From: Escherichia coli O127:H6 str. E2348/69
Lineage (GTDB): Bacteria; Pseudomonadota; Gammaproteobacteria; Enterobacterales; Enterobacteriaceae
Assembly (NCBI RefSeq): GCF_000026545.1
Contig: NC_011601.1
DNA length: 64,000 bases
Direction: 5' to 3' (one strand)
Shown: one piece after another, positions 16,323 through 27,613 of the stretch
How the letters are laid out: the number at the start of each line of letters is the position of its first letter
Numbering within the stretch: the first letter of the stretch is position 1
Notes under the pieces: generated by a model
Seen by the model: the letters and a program-made list of their open reading frames with translations, nothing else
What the model was told of the DNA's origin: nothing
Database searches by the model: none
Translations under genes and position numbers: made by a program

Positions 16323-17258
16323 ATGGCCGCCGTTAACTTACGTCATATTGAAATTTTTCATGCGGTAATGACCGCCGGAAGCCTGACTGAGGCGGCACAC
16401 TTGCTACACACCTCACAGCCAACCGTCAGCCGCGAACTGGCGCGCTTTGAGAAGGTGATCGGGCTGAAATTGTTTGAGCGCATACGTGGACGATTACATC
16501 CTACCGTGCAAGGACTGCGTCTGTTTGAAGAAGTGCAACGATCCTGGTACGGACTGGATCGCATTGTCAGCGCCGCAGAAAGTCTGCGCGAGTTTCGCCA
16601 GGGAGAACTGTCTATTGCCTGCCTGCCGGTCTTTTCGCAATCTTTTTTACCGCAGCTCCTGCAACCCTTTCTGGCACGTTATCCCGATGTCAGCTTAAAC
16701 ATCGTGCCCCAGGAATCACCGCTACTTGAAGAGTGGCTCTCGGCCCAGCGTCATGATTTAGGACTCACTGAAACGCTCCATACGCCTGCGGGAACAGAAC
16801 GTACCGAATTACTCTCTTTAGATGAAGTGTGTGTGTTACCTCCGGGCCATCCGCTGGCGGTAAAAAAGGTATTAACGCCGGATGATTTTCACGGTGAGAA
16901 CTACATCAGCCTTTCCCGTACTGACAGCTATCGCCAGTTGCTGGATCAATTGTTTACTGAGAATCAGGTTAAACGACGCATGATCGTAGAAACCCACAGC
17001 GCCGCGTCAGTCTGCGCAATGGTACGGGCGGGGGTAGGCGTTTCGGTGGTTAACCCGCTCACCGCACTGGATTATGCGGCAAGCGGTTTAGTGGTGCGGC
17101 GGTTCAGCATTGCGGTTCCGTTCACTGTCAGCCTGATCCGCCCCCTGCACCGCCCGTCATCAGCGCTGGTGCAGGCGTTTAGTGAGCATTTACAAGCGGG
17201 ATTACCGAAACTGGTCACTTCTCTTGACGCTATTTTGTCGTCAGCTACGACAGCATAA
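16323..17258 (+). CDS. lysR: LysR transcriptional activator of lysA (311 aa)
   Basis: Track ORF 311 aa, LysR-type HTH N-terminus; divergent from lysA. Confidence 0.95.
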
Positions 17259-17937
17259 AAGCGACAGCATCCTCGGCATGGATCGCCGCGGTATCAAACA
17301 CAGGCAGAACACTGCGCTCTTCTGGCACCAGTAAACCAATTTCTGTGCAGCCAAAAATGACGCCCTGTGCGCCCTGTTCTGCAAGGCGAGCAATCACTTG
17401 CGCATAATAAGCGCGTGACGCTTCGGTAAATTGCCCCAGACACAGTTCTTCAAAAATAATCTGATTAATTTTTGCCCGTTCATCCGCTTCAGGAATAAGA
17501 CAGTTGATGGAAAATTGTTCCGTCAGCCGCCCGCGATAAAAATCCTGTTCCATGGTGTAACGTGTACCCAGCAGCGCCACACGAGTCATTCCTGCCCCGG
17601 TAATTGCACGTCCAGTGGCATCCGCTATGTGTAAGAAAGGCAGAGAGCAACGAGACTCAATGGCATCCGCCACTTTGTGCATCGTATTGGTGCATAACAC
17701 AATACCTTCTGCGCCCGCCCGCTGTAAGCCAAGCGCCGCCTCAGCCAGAATATCCCCGGTTTTGTCCCACTCACCGCGACGCTGGCACTCTTCTATTTCA
17801 TGAAAATCGACGCTATGTAGCAGCACTTGCGCAGAGTGAAGCCCACCAAGCCGCTGTTTAATGCCTTCATTTATCAGACGATAGTAAGGAATAGTGGATT
17901 CCCAGCTCATTCCTCCCAGCAAACCAATTGTTTTCAT
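17245..17937 (-). CDS. ygeA: Asp/Glu racemase-family amino acid racemase (230 aa)
   Basis: Track ORF 230 aa, Asp/Glu/hydantoin racemase-like sequence. Confidence 0.9.
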
Positions 17938-18025
17938 TCCTCTCTCCTGATGTGTGTTACCGCAACAAGGCTGAATAAGGAACGAGGCAAACGCCTCAAC
18001 GGCCAGGTGCCTAATCTCTATTAAC

Positions 18026-18059
18026 GAAAAAAGGGCCGGATGTACAGCACATCCGGCCC
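18026..18059 (-). terminator. rho-independent terminator of araE
   Basis: Perfect 11-bp stem GGGCCGGATGT/ACATCCGGCCC with 5-nt loop just after araE stop, followed on the minus strand by a U-run (plus-strand A-run 18026-18032). Confidence 0.8.
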
Positions 18060-18065
18060 GTGAAA

Positions 18066-19484
18066 TCAGACGCCGATATTTCTCAACTTTTCGCCTGCCA
18101 TCAGTTTGCGCTCGATATGTTCCAGCGTGACATTTTTGGTTTCCGGAATGAGCCAGAAAGTGATGCCCACAAACGCAATGTTCAGCGCAGTGTAGAGCCA
18201 GAACGTACCGGCAGCGCCAATGCTATCAAGCAGTGTCAGGAAGGTCGCGCCGATAATCATATTCGACACCCAGTTTGTCGTCGTTGAGCAGGTGATGCCA
18301 AAATCGCGGCATTTCAGCGGCTGAATTTCAGAGCACAAGATCCACACCACTGGCGCGGCGCTCATCGCATAACCGGCAATACACATCATCGTCATGCCAA
18401 CAGAGAGCCAGGACAAGCCACTGGAAGCCGTACCGTTATCAAACTGCATCAGGCAGTAACCCAGCACCAGAGTGCCTAACGCCATCACGCTGAAACCAAT
18501 TTTCAGAGCCGGCTTACGCCCTGCTTTATCTACCGTAAAGACCGCAATGAAGGTAGCGAACATAAAGGTCAGCCCCACGACCAGAGTCGCAATCATCTGT
18601 TGTTCTGTGGTCGTAAAGCCCGCCATTTTGAAGATACGTGGCGCGTAGTACATGATGATGTTCATACCGGTAAACTGCTGCATCGCCTGCAACAACATAC
18701 CGAGAAATACAGCACGACGGACGTTACGGTTGATCTTAAACAATGCCCAACCGCCCTGTTTTAACTTCAGGCTTTCACGAATTTCGTTGAGTTCTTCTCG
18801 CGCTTTTTCCGACGTATCGCGCAGCATACGCAATACTTCTTCCGCCTCAATATGACGCCCCTTTTCCGCCAGCCAGCGCGGGCTATTTGGCAGGAAGACC
18901 ACCAGAATAATCAGCAGAACTGCTGGTAAAGCAAGAACCCCCAACATTGCGCGCCAGTTACCGCTATAACTGAACGCTGTATCGGATAAAAACGCCAGCA
19001 CGATGCCGAGAGTGACCATCAACTGGTACATGCTGATCATCTTACCGCGAACGTTTTCACTTGCCATTTCAGAAAGATACAGAGGAGCGGTGTAAGACGC
19101 GATCCCGACAGCAATGCCCAGCACCACTCGAGCGGCGATTAACATCTCTACGCTGGTCGCAAAAGCGGACCCTATCGAGCCGAGCACAAACAGGATGGCC
19201 CCCGCCATCAGGCTGTATTTACGCCCCAGGCGGAACGACAGCCAACCATTAAACAGCGCACCAATTGCTGCGCCGAGCATCATGCTACTGACCACCCATT
19301 CCTGCAAACGACTGGTCAGCACAAAGTGATCGGTAATGAACGGCAACGCTCCGGCGATTACGCCGATATCAAGACCAAATAACAATCCTGCGACCGCAGC
19401 AGCTACCGAAACAAACATATTCATACGCCGCGTATCCCGCAGAGGACGTGGCGTTAAAGCAGATTCCGTATTGATAGTAACCAT
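18066..19484 (-). CDS. araE: arabinose:H+ symporter, MFS (472 aa)
   Basis: Track ORF 18066..19538 trimmed to internal Met [13 protein letters not shown] to give 472 aa; sugar porter family. Confidence 0.93.
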
Positions 19485-19559
19485 TTTTTCCTGCCAGCAG
19501 AGAGTAAGACATAGTGAAAAAATACGTGAACAATTCACACAGGTGTCAGGTCGGAAATA

Positions 19560-19740
19560 GCATAAATATGGATTAAATTGCTACGACATGTCGTTATGTG
19601 ATGGATATTCCAATTTTCAAATTAAGTTGAATTATTGAGATTATTATTAACTACCTAATTTTAAAGCAGATAAAATTCATAAAGTTCATCAATTGATAAT
19701 TGATATGGATTATTTCATAACCATGATATGGATTATGATG
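19560..19740 (-). promoter_or_regulatory. araE upstream region with three copies of ATATGGATTA (possible AraC half-sites)
   Basis: ATATGGATTA at about 19567, 19704 and 19727; the latter two are direct repeats about 23 bp apart, resembling AraC I1-I2 half-site geometry; coordinates approximate. Confidence 0.35.
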
Positions 19741-19762
19741 ATCTACAGGTATAAAAAACCCT

Positions 19763-19772
19763 GCCATGCGAC
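19763..19772. repeat. direct repeat GCCATGCGAC flanking IS copy 1 (second copy at 21323-21332)
   Basis: Identical 10-mer immediately outside both ends of the element; 9 or 10 bp may be true target-site duplication. Confidence 0.8.
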
Positions 19773-21322
19773 CTGTCTCTTGATCAGATCTCCTGATCAA
19801 GAGACTTCATCACCAGGTAACCCTCAACCATATCCTGAAGTCTGAACCAGCCATCCCACATGACTACCCAACCGGGGCGACCGGTGCGTTTGCTGTCATG
19901 CCATCGCCCCAGTTTCGCCAGTTTCAGACAGGCCCATTTCAGTGTCGGCATCTGTGACGGAAGCGGTTTTCCTTCCAGCTTAACCCACAGCAGTTTCCAC
20001 TCTGTCGGCGTCAGTATTTTCTCACAGCTGTCATTTTGTGTTTCTTCACTGATACCGCCCTGCCGCAGGCCCAGCACCCGCACCGCGATAAACGCCTTGA
20101 TAACCACCATGCGCTCGAGGTTATCCCGGGTCTGCATTCGCAGCGATTCCACACATGTACCACCACTTTTCCACGCCTTGTGGTATTCCTCTATCAGCCA
20201 GCGTCGCTCGTAATGGCTGACGATACGTCGCGCATCGGCGGCACTCGCCACTTTTTCTGACGTCAGCAGATGCCAGCAGGCGCCGTCCTCTGCCTGCTCC
20301 CGGCAACAGACATACGTGAGCGGGAGCGCCTGGCCGCTGTTGTCGGGATTTTTTATGCTGACTTCGCTGTAACTGATGAACATCCGGGCCTGGCGGGCTG
20401 CCCGCCCGCCTTTTTGCATCACATTCAGCGTGTGGCTTCCCGCGGTTGCCAGGACTTCCGGCAGTTCGAAGAGCTTGCCGGGTGCTTCTTCCAGCCGGCG
20501 ATTCTGTGCTGCACGCACCACGAAGCGCTGCCCGTGGCTGACTTTATAATGCAGGTAATGCCAGATATCCGCTTCCCGGTCACAGACAGTGATTACCCGT
20601 TTCTGTATCTCCCCCAGCCGTTCGGCCATGCGCTCCGAAGCCTGCTGCCAGCGGTAACTTTCTTTTTCTTCATAGGGACGTTCTTTTCGCTGGTGCTTAA
20701 CACCGTAGGTGTCCGTGGCACGACTCCAGCGCTGCTGTTCGATAAGACCGACTGGCAGGGCGCTGTCGGGGGCGTACATCAGGACAGAGTGAGCCAGCAG
20801 CCCGCGCGTCTTCGGGTTAGTGGTGGTATTCCCCAGGTCATCAGATGCCGTACTGTGACTGAAGTTAATGGTGGTGGTGTCTTCCAGCGCGAGGAGCAGC
20901 GGATGAGCCTCACATGCCCTTACAGTGGCGGTAAATCCGGCTTCGGCAATGGCTTGCGGGGACACAGACGGGTTACGTATCAGGCGGTACGCACCTTCAA
21001 CCTGAGCAGTGGACTGGGATGATTTCACAATAGAAAGACCTGCATGCTGAGCGAGAGAAGAGGCCAGTGACACAAGGCGTCGTGTACGACGCGGATCACC
21101 GAGACGGGCATGTCCAAACTGCTCGTTAGCCCATGAATAACAATCAGAAAGTACCATAACAGACCCGAAGAAAATGAAATATAAGAGAAGATCAACAGGT
21201 GAGGAAAAAGTTCAAAAAATCGCTGCCGGGGAGGAAGGAAACTACCGGATGGAAAGAGTCCCCCTAAAGCAGACTGACAGACATCACAAATCCCCGGGTG
21301 GGGATTTGTGTATAAGAGACAG
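19773..21322 (-). mobile_element. IS4-family, IS50-like insertion sequence, copy 1 (1550 bp)
   Basis: Termini CTGTCTCTTGATCAGATCT (left) and revcomp CTGTCTCTTATACACAAAT (right), matching IS50 inside and outside ends as I recall them; single 457-aa transposase ORF; flanking direct repeat; identical second copy at 43835-45384. Confidence 0.9.
19784..21157 (-). CDS. IS50-like (Tn5-type) DDE transposase (457 aa)
   Basis: Tn5 Tnp-like motifs LALEDTT, VCDREAD and YERRWLIEEYHKAWKSG (DDE triad and YREK signature); stop codon lies inside the left terminal repeat as in IS50. Confidence 0.9.
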   Translation of the reverse strand: MVLSDCYSWANEQFGHARLGDPRRTRRLVSLASSLAQHAGLSIVKSSQSTAQVEGAYRLIRNPSVSPQAIAEAGFTATVRACEAHPLLLALEDTTTINFSHSTASDDLGNTTTNPKTRGLLAHSVLMYAPDSALPVGLIEQQRWSRATDTYGVKHQRKERPYEEKESYRWQQASERMAERLGEIQKRVITVCDREADIWHYLHYKVSHGQRFVVRAAQNRRLEEAPGKLFELPEVLATAGSHTLNVMQKGGRAARQARMFISYSEVSIKNPDNSGQALPLTYVCCREQAEDGACWHLLTSEKVASAADARRIVSHYERRWLIEEYHKAWKSGGTCVESLRMQTRDNLERMVVIKAFIAVRVLGLRQGGISEETQNDSCEKILTPTEWKLLWVKLEGKPLPSQMPTLKWACLKLAKLGRWHDSKRTGRPGWVVMWDGWFRLQDMVEGYLVMKSLDQEI

Positions 21323-24708: not shown

Positions 24709-25938
24709 ATGTCTAATATTTGGTCAAAAGAAGAAACTCTGTGGAGTTTCGCGCTCTACGGCACAGCCGTTGGTGCAGGCACGCTCTTCCTTCCTATTCA
24801 GTTAGGTTCGGCGGGGGCTGTGGTCCTGTTTATTACTGCTCTGGTCGCCTGGCCTTTAACATATTGGCCACATAAAGCCTTATGCCAGTTCATCCTCTCA
24901 TCGAAAACATCAGCAGGTGAAGGGATAACGGGCGCGGTAACACACTACTATGGCAAGAAGATTGGTAATCTGATTACCACGCTGTACTTCATCGCCTTTT
25001 TTGTCGTCGTGTTGATATATGCAGTGGCAATTACCAACTCACTTACGGAACAGCTGGCAAAGCATATGGTTATTGATCTTCGCATCCGTATGTTGGTGAG
25101 TCTGGGGGTTGTATTAATCCTGAATCTCATTTTTCTGATGGGACGCCATGCAACCATTCGGGTAATGGGATTTTTGGTATTCCCATTGATTGCCTATTTC
25201 TTATTTCTTTCTATTTACCTGGTCGGTAGTTGGCAACCTGATCTATTAACAACCCAGGTAGAGTTCAATCAGAATACCCTTCACCAGATATGGATATCGA
25301 TTCCCGTGATGGTTTTCGCTTTTAGCCATACGCCCATTATTTCTACGTTTGCCATAGACAGACGTGAAAAATATGGCGAACATGCTATGGATAAATGCAA
25401 AAAAATTATGAAAGTCGCTTATCTCATCATCTGCATAAGTGTATTGTTCTTTGTCTTTAGCTGCCTGCTTTCTATTCCACCTTCGTATATTGAAGCGGCT
25501 AAAGAAGAAGGGGTTACCATTTTATCGGCGCTTTCTATGCTGCCGAACGCCCCAGCATGGTTATCAATTTCCGGGATTATTGTCGCAGTAGTTGCGATGT
25601 CGAAATCATTCCTGGGTACGTACTTTGGCGTTATTGAAGGTGCCACAGAGGTCGTCAAAACAACATTACAGCAGGTTGGTGTAAAGAAAAGTCGTGCATT
25701 TAACCGCGCACTATCAATTATGTTGGTATCGCTGATTACCTTCATTGTTTGTTGCATTAACCCGAACGCGATTTCGATGATTTACGCGATCAGCGGCCCG
25801 CTCATTGCCATGATACTTTTCATCATGCCTACGCTGTCAACGTATCTCATCCCGGCGCTTAAACCCTGGCGTTCCATCGGAAATCTGATTACGCTGATCG
25901 TGGGTATCCTGTGCGTATCGGTAATGTTCTTTAGCTAA
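24709..25938 (+). CDS. yqeG: amino-acid transporter-like membrane protein, HAAAP family (409 aa)
   Basis: Track ORF 409 aa, polytopic hydrophobic protein; divergent from yqeF. Confidence 0.9.
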   Translation: MSNIWSKEETLWSFALYGTAVGAGTLFLPIQLGSAGAVVLFITALVAWPLTYWPHKALCQFILSSKTSAGEGITGAVTHYYGKKIGNLITTLYFIAFFVVVLIYAVAITNSLTEQLAKHMVIDLRIRMLVSLGVVLILNLIFLMGRHATIRVMGFLVFPLIAYFLFLSIYLVGSWQPDLLTTQVEFNQNTLHQIWISIPVMVFAFSHTPIISTFAIDRREKYGEHAMDKCKKIMKVAYLIICISVLFFVFSCLLSIPPSYIEAAKEEGVTILSALSMLPNAPAWLSISGIIVAVVAMSKSFLGTYFGVIEGATEVVKTTLQQVGVKKSRAFNRALSIMLVSLITFIVCCINPNAISMIYAISGPLIAMILFIMPTLSTYLIPALKPWRSIGNLITLIVGILCVSVMFFS

Positions 25939-25948
25939 TATCCGTTGT

Positions 25949-25990
25949 GGATGGTTCAAAATTGCTTCAATTTTGAACCATCCCAGTTTT
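25949..25990 (+). terminator. rho-independent terminator of yqeG
   Basis: 15-bp perfect stem GGATGGTTCAAAATT / AATTTTGAACCATCC with 5-nt loop, followed by T-run, 11 bp after yqeG stop. Confidence 0.75.
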
Positions 25991-26253
25991 CATAATGTTC
26001 ATTTGTTATTATTCCGCCCTATCACTTCTCTCGTAATATTATATAATTATAAGCTAGTTAAACACACAAAGAGTTCTGAACATCTTAAATAAGACTATTT
26101 AAGATACATGACGATTGCATTGCGTAAACGCTTTTTATTTACAAAAAATGGGGAAGTATTACGGCGATTGCGAAAAGTCTGAAGCGCTTGAATTAAGATA
26201 ATATAGAAAATCAGATACAACAAAAATGGCAGGTAGATGATGTGAAGATAAAT

Positions 26254-26327
26254 TGGAGCGGGCGAAGGGAATCGAACCCTCGTATAGAGCTTGGGAAGCT
26301 CTCGTTCTACCATTGAACTACGCCCGC
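26254..26327 (-). tRNA. glyU: tRNA-Gly (anticodon CCC)
   Basis: Minus-strand 74-nt sequence GCGGGCGTAGTTCAATGGTAGAACGAGAGCTTCCCAAGCTCTATACGAGGGTTCGATTCCCTTCGCCCGCTCCA with anticodon loop CUUCCCAAG and encoded CCA. Confidence 0.95.
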
Positions 26328-26405
26328 TTCGAGATGCGTAAGGCATTATAAACCTTACGCTCTCCTTAGCAAGTACCACGCTGCTGACTGCTGATTAATT
26401 CGCCA

Positions 26406-27161
26406 TCAGCATTTTGGCTTGCTGCCCTGAGGCGGCAAGTAACGTAGCGGATCAATTGCCGTTGCACGGTAACGAATCTGGAAATGCAGGCGAACAGATG
26501 CCGCATCAGTGCTCCCCATAGTGGCGATTTTTTGCCCAGCTTTCACGCTTTGCCCATTATTTACCAGCATCGTGTCATTATGAGCGTAAGCCGTAATGTA
26601 ATCTTCACTGTGTTTAATCATGATGAGATTACCGTAGCCACGCAGCTGGTTGCCCACATACACCACCTTTCCTGCACCCGCGGCGTAAATAGGTGTACCT
26701 CGTGGAGCTGAGATATCAATCCCTTTATTGCCGCCATCTGCTGTCGAATACGGCATGATAACTTTCCCTGTCGTTGGCCATAACCAACAACGTTGCCCTA
26801 CTGGCGGCCAGGAAGATTTCGGTACCGCTGATGACGGTGTAACCGATGCGGTTTTGGTCGTTGATTTGGCGGTTGATTTACGTGTACTACTGCTACTTTT
26901 CGCCCCACCCAGTTTTAGTTTCTGACCTACTTCAATGGTGTAAGGGGGGGAAATGCCGTTCAGTCGCGCCAGTTCTTTTACGCTGGTTCCCGTGGTGCGC
27001 GAAATACGATATAGCGTATCCCCCCGTTTCACGGTGTAAACGGAGCCGGAATACGTTCCTGTATCGGATGATTTGCTACCCGAACAGCCCGCCAAAAGCA
27101 GCCCAACCGATAACAACATCACGATACCCAGAGATTTTTTATTCAGGCGTCCCGCACTCAA
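26406..27161 (-). CDS. ygeR: LysM-domain, M23-peptidase-family lipoprotein (251 aa, TTG start)
   Basis: Track ORF 26406..27185 trimmed to the TTG that gives (M)SAGRLNKKSLGIVMLLSVGLLLAGCSG signal/lipobox; LysM motif YTVKRGDTLYRIS. Confidence 0.88.
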   Translation of the reverse strand: MSAGRLNKKSLGIVMLLSVGLLLAGCSGSKSSDTGTYSGSVYTVKRGDTLYRISRTTGTSVKELARLNGISPPYTIEVGQKLKLGGAKSSSSTRKSTAKSTTKTASVTPSSAVPKSSWPPVGQRCWLWPTTGKVIMPYSTADGGNKGIDISAPRGTPIYAAGAGKVVYVGNQLRGYGNLIMIKHSEDYITAYAHNDTMLVNNGQSVKAGQKIATMGSTDAASVRLHFQIRYRATAIDPLRYLPPQGSKPKC

Positions 27162-27519: not shown

Positions 27520-27613
27520 TGCTAAGACTAAATCTTTGCCATAAGAACCAAATGTTCAAACCGAGGGGATTTCTATGGAAGCGCGGGAAGCAACCGCTAC
27601 GGGTGAATCATGC

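What the first reader, a model, noticed from the sequence alone, without database searches (positions are those of the whole stretch)
25939..26405. Unoccupied island site between yqeG and tRNA-Gly glyU (no ETT2)
In K-12, as I recall, a multi-kb remnant of the ETT2 type III secretion island (yqeH through ygeQ) lies between yqeG and glyU. Here only about 315 bp of AT-rich spacer separates the yqeG stop (25938) from glyU (26254-26327), and the spacer holds the yqeG terminator. The 3' end of glyU shows no integrase, direct-repeat scar or IS remnant, so this looks like a naive site rather than a decayed island.
Basis: partly seen in the sequence, partly recalled or inferred. Interest (0 to 1): 0.45.

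Follow-up and report, generated by a model that had tools for sequence, protein, structure and literature searches.

The report
Empty ETT2 island site beside glyU
This is the already documented ETT2-free form of the yqeG-glyU interval carried by phylogroup B2 E. coli (the window is strain E2348/69); it is ordinary, and comparison with other Escherichia suggests the island was cleanly deleted rather than never present.

Summary
The window is 100% identical to E. coli E2348/69. yqeG ends at 25938, glyU (tRNA-Gly CCC) lies at 26254-26327 on the minus strand, and a 315-bp spacer (31.7% GC) separates them. The spacer holds the yqeG terminator and no integrase, IS or tRNA-fragment repeat. K-12 carries an 11.9-kb ETT2 remnant at this position, and O157 and 2014C-3075 carry about 27.5 kb. 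About 1,210 of 5,426 complete E. coli genomes have the empty form and about 4,100 are occupied. ETT2 absence from B2 is published, so this is already known.

The 'naive site' reading is probably wrong. A junction with no scar proves little, because the island borders are defined only by comparison with this empty allele. Every other Escherichia lineage sampled is occupied or scarred: non-B2 E. coli, MOD1-EC7003, E1V33, the SCPM lineage and E. albertii. yqeH has diverged from K-12 as much as the flanking genes have (dS 0.80 against 0.67-0.91), so it sat beside yqeG before E. coli diversified. EC7003, an outgroup at this locus, keeps a microhomology deletion scar. B2 most likely lost ETT2 by one clean deletion. 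That allele carries about 10 private substitutions and has moved into a non-B2 background (PK12) by recombination.

The parts
24709..25938 (+). yqeG (HAAAP-family amino acid permease), left flank of the site
   Evidence: ORF. Annotated as yqeG in E2348/69. 98.5% nt identity to K-12 yqeG, dS 0.064.
25949..25993 (+). yqeG intrinsic terminator: 16-bp-stem hairpin (25949-25983) followed by a T-tract
   Evidence: Terminator scan. Dominant helix in the MFE and centroid folds, z = -3.2 for the region. Conserved in K-12, O157, EC7003, E1V33 and E. albertii (A1).
26035..26110 (.). Substitutions private to the empty allele, at 26035, 26040, 26041, 26044, 26045, 26051, 26054, 26074, 26106 and 26110 (26051 is seen in E2348/69 but not in PK12 or LS4)
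   Evidence: The window differs from occupied alleles at 10-11 of 83 aligned positions, whereas K-12, O157 and 2014C-3075 differ from each other at 0-1 of 83. At the sites where the outgroup states are unambiguous, EC7003, E1V33 and SCPM share the occupied state. The same states are present in the empty alleles of PK12 and LS4.
26082..26105 (.). Conserved inverted repeat ATCTTAAAT-AAGACT-ATTTAAGAT, ending 7 nt before the ETT2 breakpoint
   Evidence: Coordinates. Forms a stable hairpin on both strands. Nearly invariant from E. coli to E. albertii (A1). Function not tested.
26105..26113 (.). Position at which ETT2 is present in other strains: between 26112 and 26113, with 8 nt of ambiguity (TACATGAC, 26105-26112)
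   Evidence: In occupied genomes the match to the window splits exactly at query position 613/614, which is window 26112/26113. The two 8-mers in O157 (TGCATAAC and TACAAAAG) match each other at only 5 of 8 positions. My own binomial estimate is that about 6% of random pairs would do as well.
26113..26253 (.). 141 bp between the breakpoint and the glyU 3' end, shared with the right flank of ETT2-positive E. coli
   Evidence: 93% identical to O157 and about 96% to 2014C-3075. Only the roughly 70 bp nearest glyU are found in EC7003. No detectable counterpart in E1V33 or E. albertii.
26254..26327 (-). glyU, tRNA-Gly(CCC), intact
   Evidence: ARAGORN. Rfam tRNA, 71.6 bits. 100% identical to the glyU of K-12, O157, and of Huaxiibacter, Lelliottia, Leclercia and Silvania.
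26345..26372 (-). glyU promoter-like site, TTGCTA-16 nt-TATAAT
   Evidence: Promoter scan, 10 of 12 matches. The block is conserved in all Escherichia compared, including E. albertii (A3). Consensus match only; not tested.
26406..27161 (-). actS (ygeR), right flank of the site
   Evidence: ORF. Annotated as actS. 98.9% nt identity to K-12.

Best explanation
The interval is the ETT2-free allele of the yqeG-glyU locus typical of phylogroup B2 E. coli. Functionally it is a plain convergent intergenic spacer. It contains the yqeG terminator, a second conserved hairpin, 141 bp of glyU 3' flank, and then glyU with its own promoter. Nothing mobile is present. Historically (inferred) it is a derived state. 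The ancestor of E. coli already carried at least the yqeH-side part of ETT2 next to yqeG. One illegitimate deletion of about 27.5 kb on the B2 stem removed everything from 8 nt beyond the 26082-26105 hairpin to 141 bp short of glyU, leaving no island DNA. That allele has since been inherited in B2. It is occasionally moved into other backgrounds, or replaced, by homologous recombination in the flanks.
For: Identity and frequency. The window is 100% identical to E2348/69. 1,207-1,217 of 5,426 genomes have the contiguous spacer, among them the B2 strain UPEC 536. 4,081 genomes have the occupied left junction and 4,113 have yqeH-yqeJ.

Outgroups at this locus. MOD1-EC7003 lies outside B2 plus K-12 (dS 0.13-0.17 to both, against 0.04-0.06 between B2 and K-12 for yqeG and actS). 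It keeps about 44-49 bp of the ETT2 left end fused to the roughly 70 bp nearest glyU across a GCGAT microhomology. E1V33 and the SCPM lineage carry yqeH, yqeI, yqeJ and ygeH and then glyU. E. albertii is colinear with the ETT2 left end and has the full T3SS beside glyU.

Timing. For K-12 against E1V33, dS of yqeH is 0.80. The flanks give yqeF 0.85, yqeG 0.67, actS 0.91 and xdhA 0.73. yqeH has therefore been linked to yqeG since before that deep split.

The B2 spacer is E. coli-type. It shares the K-12/EC7003 states against E1V33 and adds private derived changes.

Deletions are common at this locus: K-12, EC7003, E1V33/SCPM and the E. albertii type lineage each show one.

Recombination of the alleles. 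PK12 has the empty junction with a B2-type left side, but its right spacer, actS and xdhA match the type found in 2014C-3075. Strain 2014C-3075 has a B2-like yqeG and first 91 bp of spacer and then the occupied haplotype.

Citrobacter sedlakii and C. amalonaticus have a YqeH homologue (78% aa) about 1.9 kb downstream of yqeG.
Against: No island DNA survives in B2, so the deletion is inferred from phylogeny alone. No convincing microhomology explains the B2 junction.

The published reading of Ren et al. 2004, as summarised in PMC7058095 and PMC9241512, is that B2 never acquired ETT2. The unlinked eip/selC locus is also missing from ST131, which fits 'never acquired' at least as well as two losses.

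The T3SS genes of E. albertii and E. coli are saturated at synonymous sites (dS 1.2 to over 3, against 0.4-0.95 for the flanks). E. albertii also has a foreign glyU. So part of ETT2 has moved horizontally, which weakens simple parsimony for the T3SS module.

The outgroup status of EC7003 rests on two genes. E. fergusonii, E. marmotae, E. ruysiae and clade I were not recovered for this locus.
Confidence: 0.7

Rival explanations
1. Naive site. The B2 lineage never carried ETT2. The island entered the ancestor of the other phylogroups between window 26112 and 26113 after B2 had split off.
For: B2 shows no island remnant, IS, integrase or tRNA-fragment repeat. The two 8-mers flanking the island in occupied strains resemble the single 8-mer in B2 (TGCATAAC and TACAAAAG against TACATGAC), as a degenerate target-site duplication would. 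The literature places B2 as early-branching and lacking both ETT2 and eip. The T3SS module shows signs of horizontal exchange.
Against: It requires ETT2 to have entered non-B2 E. coli, EC7003, E1V33/SCPM and E. albertii independently while remaining colinear from yqeG onward. It also requires yqeH to show flank-level dS to E1V33 by coincidence. The 8-mer similarity is 5 of 8 and the wider end-to-end similarity is not significant (6-9% of controls score as well). ETT2 encodes no integrase that could explain repeated site-specific entry.
Confidence: 0.17
2. Imported empty allele. The B2 ancestor was occupied and lost ETT2 by homologous recombination with DNA from an unsampled, truly naive relative. 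The roughly 10 private substitutions in 26035-26110 would be donor sequence.
For: Flank recombination that swaps the empty and occupied alleles does occur (PK12 and 2014C-3075). The 12% divergence of the 83 bp nearest the junction exceeds the EC7003 to K-12 divergence over the same stretch (7 of 83).
Against: The divergence is one-sided. The first 60 bp or so to the right of the junction show no substitution against 2014C-3075, although an imported tract must extend into the right flank. No naive donor was found among the loci recovered. The rest of the B2 spacer is E. coli-type.
Confidence: 0.08
3. Assembly or strain-specific artefact: the island was lost in the laboratory or collapsed during assembly of this one genome.
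For: None found.
Against: The same contiguous spacer occurs in more than 1,200 independent complete genomes at 96.8-100% identity.
Confidence: 0.01

Closest known systems
ETT2-negative glyU locus of phylogroup B2 E. coli (Ren et al. 2004, as cited in PMC7058095, PMC9241512 and PMC3977695)
   Same: Same locus, same complete absence of ETT2 and same phylogroup. E2348/69 is called a B2 strain in PMC9241512. UPEC 536 has a 99.7% identical spacer.
   Different: No difference in the feature itself. The difference is in the reading. Those papers take the absence to be primitive. The junction and outgroup comparison here favours a secondary clean deletion, as Ooka et al. 2015 (PMC4700944) implied from E. 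albertii.
ETT2 deletion isoforms (K-12 yqeH-ygeQ remnant; E1V33/SCPM remnant; E. albertii type-strain remnant; MOD1-EC7003 scar)
   Same: Same locus and the same process of mutational attrition by internal deletions. EC7003 looks empty by gene content, with a 289-bp spacer.
   Different: Each of those retains recognisable ETT2 DNA, from 44 bp to 12 kb. The window retains none.
Classical tRNA attB site for integrase-bearing islands
   Same: glyU is used in this way elsewhere. In one SCPM-lineage strain (L108) an element with a tyrosine-recombinase gene sits at glyU and leaves a 17-nt copy of the tRNA 3' end, TGGAGCGGGCGAAGGGA. The window's glyU is unoccupied in this sense too.
   Different: ETT2 does not behave this way. 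It begins 141 bp beyond the tRNA 3' end, has no integrase and has no tRNA-fragment repeat.

Membership tests
[quoted passage not shown] | eiv/epa/epr T3SS genes and the yqeH to ygeK regulator genes between yqeG and glyU | tested here: not met
   tblastn of 32 ETT2 proteins against the whole window gave no hit at E<=1e-3. The interval is 315 bp.
Decayed ETT2 remnant or scar | Residual ETT2 nucleotide sequence between the flanks | tested here: not met
   The whole spacer is accounted for by the left flank (25939-26112) and right flank (26113-26253) of occupied genomes. For contrast, EC7003 retains 44-49 bp.
Integrase-type tRNA-linked island site (occupied or excised) | Integrase gene next to the tRNA | tested here: not met
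   No such ORF or annotation in the window interval, nor in full ETT2.
Integrase-type tRNA-linked island site (occupied or excised) | Direct repeat of the tRNA 3' end bounding the island, with the insertion point inside the tRNA 3' end | tested here: not met
   There is a single copy of the glyU 3' 25-mer in the window and in the full ETT2 locus L098. The breakpoint is 141 bp from the tRNA end. A positive control exists in L108.
Naive (never-occupied) ancestral site | Outgroup lineages show the same contiguous empty sequence across the insertion point | tested here: not met
   EC7003, E1V33, SCPM and E. albertii are all occupied or scarred. More distant genera have a different gene, a 90-aa GNAT-like protein, in the interval and no alignable spacer. 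E. fergusonii, E. marmotae and E. ruysiae were not recovered.
Naive (never-occupied) ancestral site | Target-site duplication flanking the island in occupied genomes | tested here: inconclusive
   The 8-mers match at 5 of 8. The local alignment of the two island ends is reached by 6-9% of controls. No direct-repeat family spans the ends.
Deletion-derived empty allele | Island genes co-diverge with the flanks in lineages that branch outside the clade holding the empty allele | tested here: met
   yqeH dS is 0.80 against 0.67-0.91 for the flanks (K-12 against E1V33). The EC7003 scar and flanks have similar divergence. This is met for the yqeH side only. The T3SS genes against E. albertii are saturated.
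Deletion-derived empty allele | Microhomology or repeat at the deletion endpoints | tested here: inconclusive
   Only weak similarity (T.CA.AA.) at the two endpoints. The EC7003 deletion, by contrast, shows a clear GCGAT microhomology.
Rho-independent terminator (yqeG) | GC-containing hairpin followed by a T-tract directly downstream of the stop codon | tested here: met
   Termination itself cannot be tested with these tools.

The most novel reading that the evidence does not exclude
The ETT2-free glyU locus of B2 E. coli is not the primitive state assumed since 2004. It is a single old deletion allele, marked by a private haplotype of about 10 substitutions next to the junction. It is exchanged with the occupied allele by flank recombination (PK12 and 2014C-3075). 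Separately, the T3SS half of ETT2 and glyU itself were replaced by a divergent version in E. albertii. ETT2 history would then be loss plus allelic replacement rather than one late gain.
Probability: 0.6. Interest if true: 0.3.

Novelty: already known. Interest (0 to 1): 0.15.

Why it matters
It matters little. The absence of ETT2 from B2 strains, including the EPEC prototype E2348/69, is textbook knowledge, and the spacer contains nothing beyond a terminator, a hairpin and a tRNA gene. The modest value lies in the polarity question. If B2 lost ETT2 rather than never having it, then the use of ETT2 as a marker of 'post-B2' evolution needs revising, and so does the argument that B2 pathogens never needed this system. 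The locus is also a clean worked example of a general point: an island site with no scar is not evidence of a naive site unless an outgroup shows the same empty sequence.

Tried and rejected
1. Flanking direct repeats or att-like sites at the ETT2 ends. The local alignment of the two ends is not better than controls. No repeat family spans the ends. There is no tRNA-fragment copy.

2. The B2 spacer as an ancient pre-insertion allele. Rejected because the spacer is E. coli-type at the sites that separate E. coli from E1V33/SCPM, and its private differences are derived.

3. A hidden RNA gene in the spacer. Rfam finds only the tRNA. The minus-strand fold is no better than shuffles, z = +0.5.

4. 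A new promoter created by the B2-private changes. A TATAAT appears at 26042-26047, but by my reading of the sequence there is no acceptable -35 hexamer, and the scan did not report a promoter there.

5. E. albertii yqeH for a second dS test. The YqeH homologue search returned only E. coli variants with damaged yqeH, so this was a dead end.

6. The E. fergusonii locus. Its ETT2-like T3SS (EivF 54% identical) sits near folD/cysS, not at glyU.

7. A remnant of the 90-aa gene that follows yqeG in other genera. None was found in any Escherichia locus, even at E<=10 for the window.

8. Naming the unclassified Escherichia lineages through taxonomy or cluster look-ups. Uninformative.

Full report
WHAT IS THERE. 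The window is 100% identical over the test interval to the chromosome of E. coli E2348/69 (NZ_CP059840.2). The RefSeq annotation of that record matches what I read from the sequence. yqeG is at 24709-25938 (+). tRNA-Gly(CCC), glyU, is at 26254-26327 (-) and is the only tRNA in the window. actS/ygeR is at 26406-27161 (-), and xdhA starts at 27575. The yqeG-glyU spacer is 315 bp with 31.7% GC. A 16-bp-stem hairpin followed by a T-tract begins 11 nt after the yqeG stop (25949-25983). A second perfect inverted repeat of 9 bp arms lies at 26082-26105. A good sigma-70-like promoter for glyU lies at 26372-26345. No ETT2 protein has a match anywhere in the 64 kb. There is no second copy of the glyU 3' end and no other Rfam family.

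COMPARISON WITH OCCUPIED GENOMES. K-12 carries yqeH through ygeQ, 11.9 kb including an IS2, between yqeG and glyU. O157:H7 and strain 2014C-3075 carry the whole cluster, 27,530 bp in the latter. In occupied genomes the match to the window breaks exactly between 26112 and 26113, with 8 nt of ambiguity. ETT2 therefore starts 141 bp beyond the 3' end of glyU, not inside the tRNA. It has no integrase and no repeat of the tRNA end. Its two ends are no more alike than controls.

COUNTS. Among 5,426 complete E. coli genomes, 1,207-1,217 have the contiguous empty spacer at 96.8-100% identity. These include UPEC 536. A further 4,081 have the occupied left junction, 4,113 have yqeH-yqeJ, and only 1,316 retain any of eivF to sctN. 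The counts leave no need for the empty genomes to hold ETT2 elsewhere. E2348/69 has a single place for the glyU query.

WHAT IS ALREADY KNOWN. ETT2 lies next to glyU and is absent from phylogroup B2. This is attributed to Ren et al. 2004 by PMC7058095, PMC9241512 and PMC3977695. E2348/69 is described as a B2 strain. I could not open Ren et al. 2004 itself or the E2348/69 genome paper. Two readings of the absence exist in print. One is that ETT2 was gained after B2 split off (Ren, as summarised). The other is that ETT2 predates the E. coli/E. albertii split, which implies loss in B2 (Ooka et al. 2015, PMC4700944).

NAIVE OR DELETED? THE SCAR ARGUMENT. This is weaker than it looks, because the only definition of the ETT2 borders is the comparison with this empty allele. 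Any clean deletion would look the same. An outgroup is needed.

NAIVE OR DELETED? THE OUTGROUPS.

(a) Escherichia sp. MOD1-EC7003. At yqeG and actS it lies outside B2 plus K-12 (dS 0.13-0.17 to both, against 0.04-0.06 between them). It looks empty, with a 289-bp spacer. However, it retains 44-49 bp of the ETT2 left end joined to the roughly 70 bp nearest glyU across a GCGAT microhomology. That is a true deletion scar.

(b) Escherichia sp. E1V33 and the SCPM-O-B-8794/CP057162 lineage. These have yqeH, yqeI, yqeJ and ygeH and then glyU.

(c) E. albertii. It is colinear with the ETT2 left end directly after the yqeG spacer. It has either the full T3SS next to glyU or an IS1-ridden remnant.

(d) Citrobacter sedlakii and C. 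amalonaticus. They have a 78%-identical YqeH about 1.9 kb after yqeG, with no T3SS.

(e) Many other genera. In these, yqeG is followed by a 90-aa GNAT-like gene and then, at 0.9-9 kb, by an identical glyU and actS. There is no alignable counterpart of the E. coli spacer.

NAIVE OR DELETED? TIMING. Between K-12 and E1V33, yqeH has dS 0.80. This is indistinguishable from the flanks: yqeF 0.85, yqeG 0.67, actS 0.91 and xdhA 0.73. yqeH has therefore sat next to yqeG since a split far older than the B2/K-12 divergence. The B2 spacer is itself E. coli-type. The most economical history is that the E. coli ancestor was occupied and the B2 stem suffered one clean deletion. I put this at about 0.7.

WHAT ARGUES THE OTHER WAY. 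There is no residual island DNA. No convincing microhomology is present at the B2 junction. The eip/selC partner locus is also absent from ST131. There is also evidence that part of ETT2 does move horizontally. E. coli and E. albertii T3SS genes are saturated at synonymous sites (dS 1.2 to over 3), while the flanking genes give 0.43-0.95. In addition, E. albertii has a different tRNA-Gly(CCC), only 74% identical, with a 65-nt longer leader and an unrelated 3' flank. The E. coli glyU, by contrast, is identical to that of distant genera. Parsimony is therefore safe only for the yqeH side. I also could not recover E. fergusonii, E. marmotae, E. ruysiae or clade I at this locus.

TWO FURTHER OBSERVATIONS ON THE EMPTY ALLELE. 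First, in the 83 bp nearest the junction the window differs from occupied alleles at 10-11 positions. K-12, O157 and 2014C-3075 differ from each other there at only 0-1. Where the outgroup states are unambiguous, the outgroups share the occupied state. The same private states occur in the empty alleles of PK12 and LS4. The right side shows no such excess. This could reflect the age of an allele that recombination cannot easily reach, or a burst of mutation tied to the deletion. I cannot tell which.

Second, the alleles recombine. Strain 2014C-3075 has a B2-like yqeG (8 differences in 1,230 nt) and a B2-like first 91 bp of spacer, then switches to the occupied haplotype and a non-B2 xdhA. PK12 has the empty junction with the B2-type left side, but its right spacer, ActS protein and xdhA match the type found in 2014C-3075, and its yqeF is different again. 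Flank recombination therefore both removes and restores ETT2 in nature.

VERDICT. The feature is real, common and already described. Interest is low.

Noticed in passing
L092:7235-7794, L082:1955-2514, L083 (E. albertii): The E. albertii tRNA-Gly(CCC) next to actS is only 74% identical to E. coli glyU. It has a roughly 65-nt longer leader and an unrelated 3' flank, although the promoter block is conserved. The E. coli glyU is 100% identical in Huaxiibacter, Lelliottia, Leclercia and Silvania, so the E. albertii gene looks like a xenologous replacement.
   Followed up: partly
L002:3485-14159 against L092:9481-20117: ETT2 T3SS genes of E. coli O157 and E. albertii are saturated at synonymous sites (dS 1.2 to over 3), while the flanking actS, xdhABC, ygeV and yqeG give 0.43-0.95. 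The T3SS half of ETT2 seems older than the species split, or was replaced horizontally, possibly together with the foreign glyU.
   Followed up: partly
L108:16339-16355 and 16779-21230: In one strain of the SCPM-like Escherichia lineage, an element with a tyrosine-recombinase gene lies between the ETT2 remnant and the glyU/actS position. A 17-nt copy of the glyU 3' end (TGGAGCGGGCGAAGGGA) sits at its near border. glyU thus serves as a classical attB for a different island.
   Followed up: partly
window 26035-26110: There are about 10 substitutions private to the empty allele, packed next to the junction, seven of them within 26035-26054. Occupied alleles as distant as K-12 and O157 are identical there. 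The cause is unexplained: it could be the age of a recombination-shielded allele or a mutation cluster tied to the deletion.
   Followed up: partly
window 26082-26105: A perfect 9-bp-arm inverted repeat, ATCTTAAAT-AAGACT-ATTTAAGAT, is conserved from E. coli to E. albertii and ends 7 nt before the ETT2 breakpoint. It could be a second terminator hairpin or a protein-binding site. Function unknown.
   Followed up: no
L001:17057-17064 against window 26168-26244: K-12 and a set of other genomes lack about 77-79 bp of the glyU 3' flank that B2, O157 and 2014C-3075 have. This is another small deletion at the locus.
   Followed up: no
L104:4001-4036 (plasmid pF1053-2); window 26236-26271: A 36-bp fragment comprising the last 18 nt of glyU and the 18 nt downstream occurs at 58 places on E. 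coli plasmids. In the one plasmid inspected it lies directly beside an IS1 copy.
   Followed up: partly
window 19784-21157 and 43846-45219; also 49965-52835: According to the E2348/69 annotation, two ISEc13 (IS4-like) copies lie in the window, one between kduD and araE and one splitting ygfK. xdhD is annotated as a pseudogene with an internal stop.
   Followed up: no
L096 and L097 (E. fergusonii): E. fergusonii has an ETT2-like SPI-1-type T3SS cluster (EivF homologue 54% identical) at a different locus, near folD/cysS and next to an IS110-family transposase.
   Followed up: no
L101:6001-6591 and L103:5182-5772: Some E. coli carry a shortened yqeH whose dN (0.08-0.11) is at least as high as its dS (about 0.07) against K-12. 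Neighbouring genes are nearly identical. This looks like local damage or a frameshifted stretch.
   Followed up: no
L023:11296-11568 and about 30 other loci: In Enterobacter, Lelliottia, Huaxiibacter, Leclercia, Kluyvera, Silvania and others, yqeG is followed on the opposite strand by a conserved 90-aa GNAT-like gene. This gene is absent from every Escherichia locus examined.
   Followed up: partly
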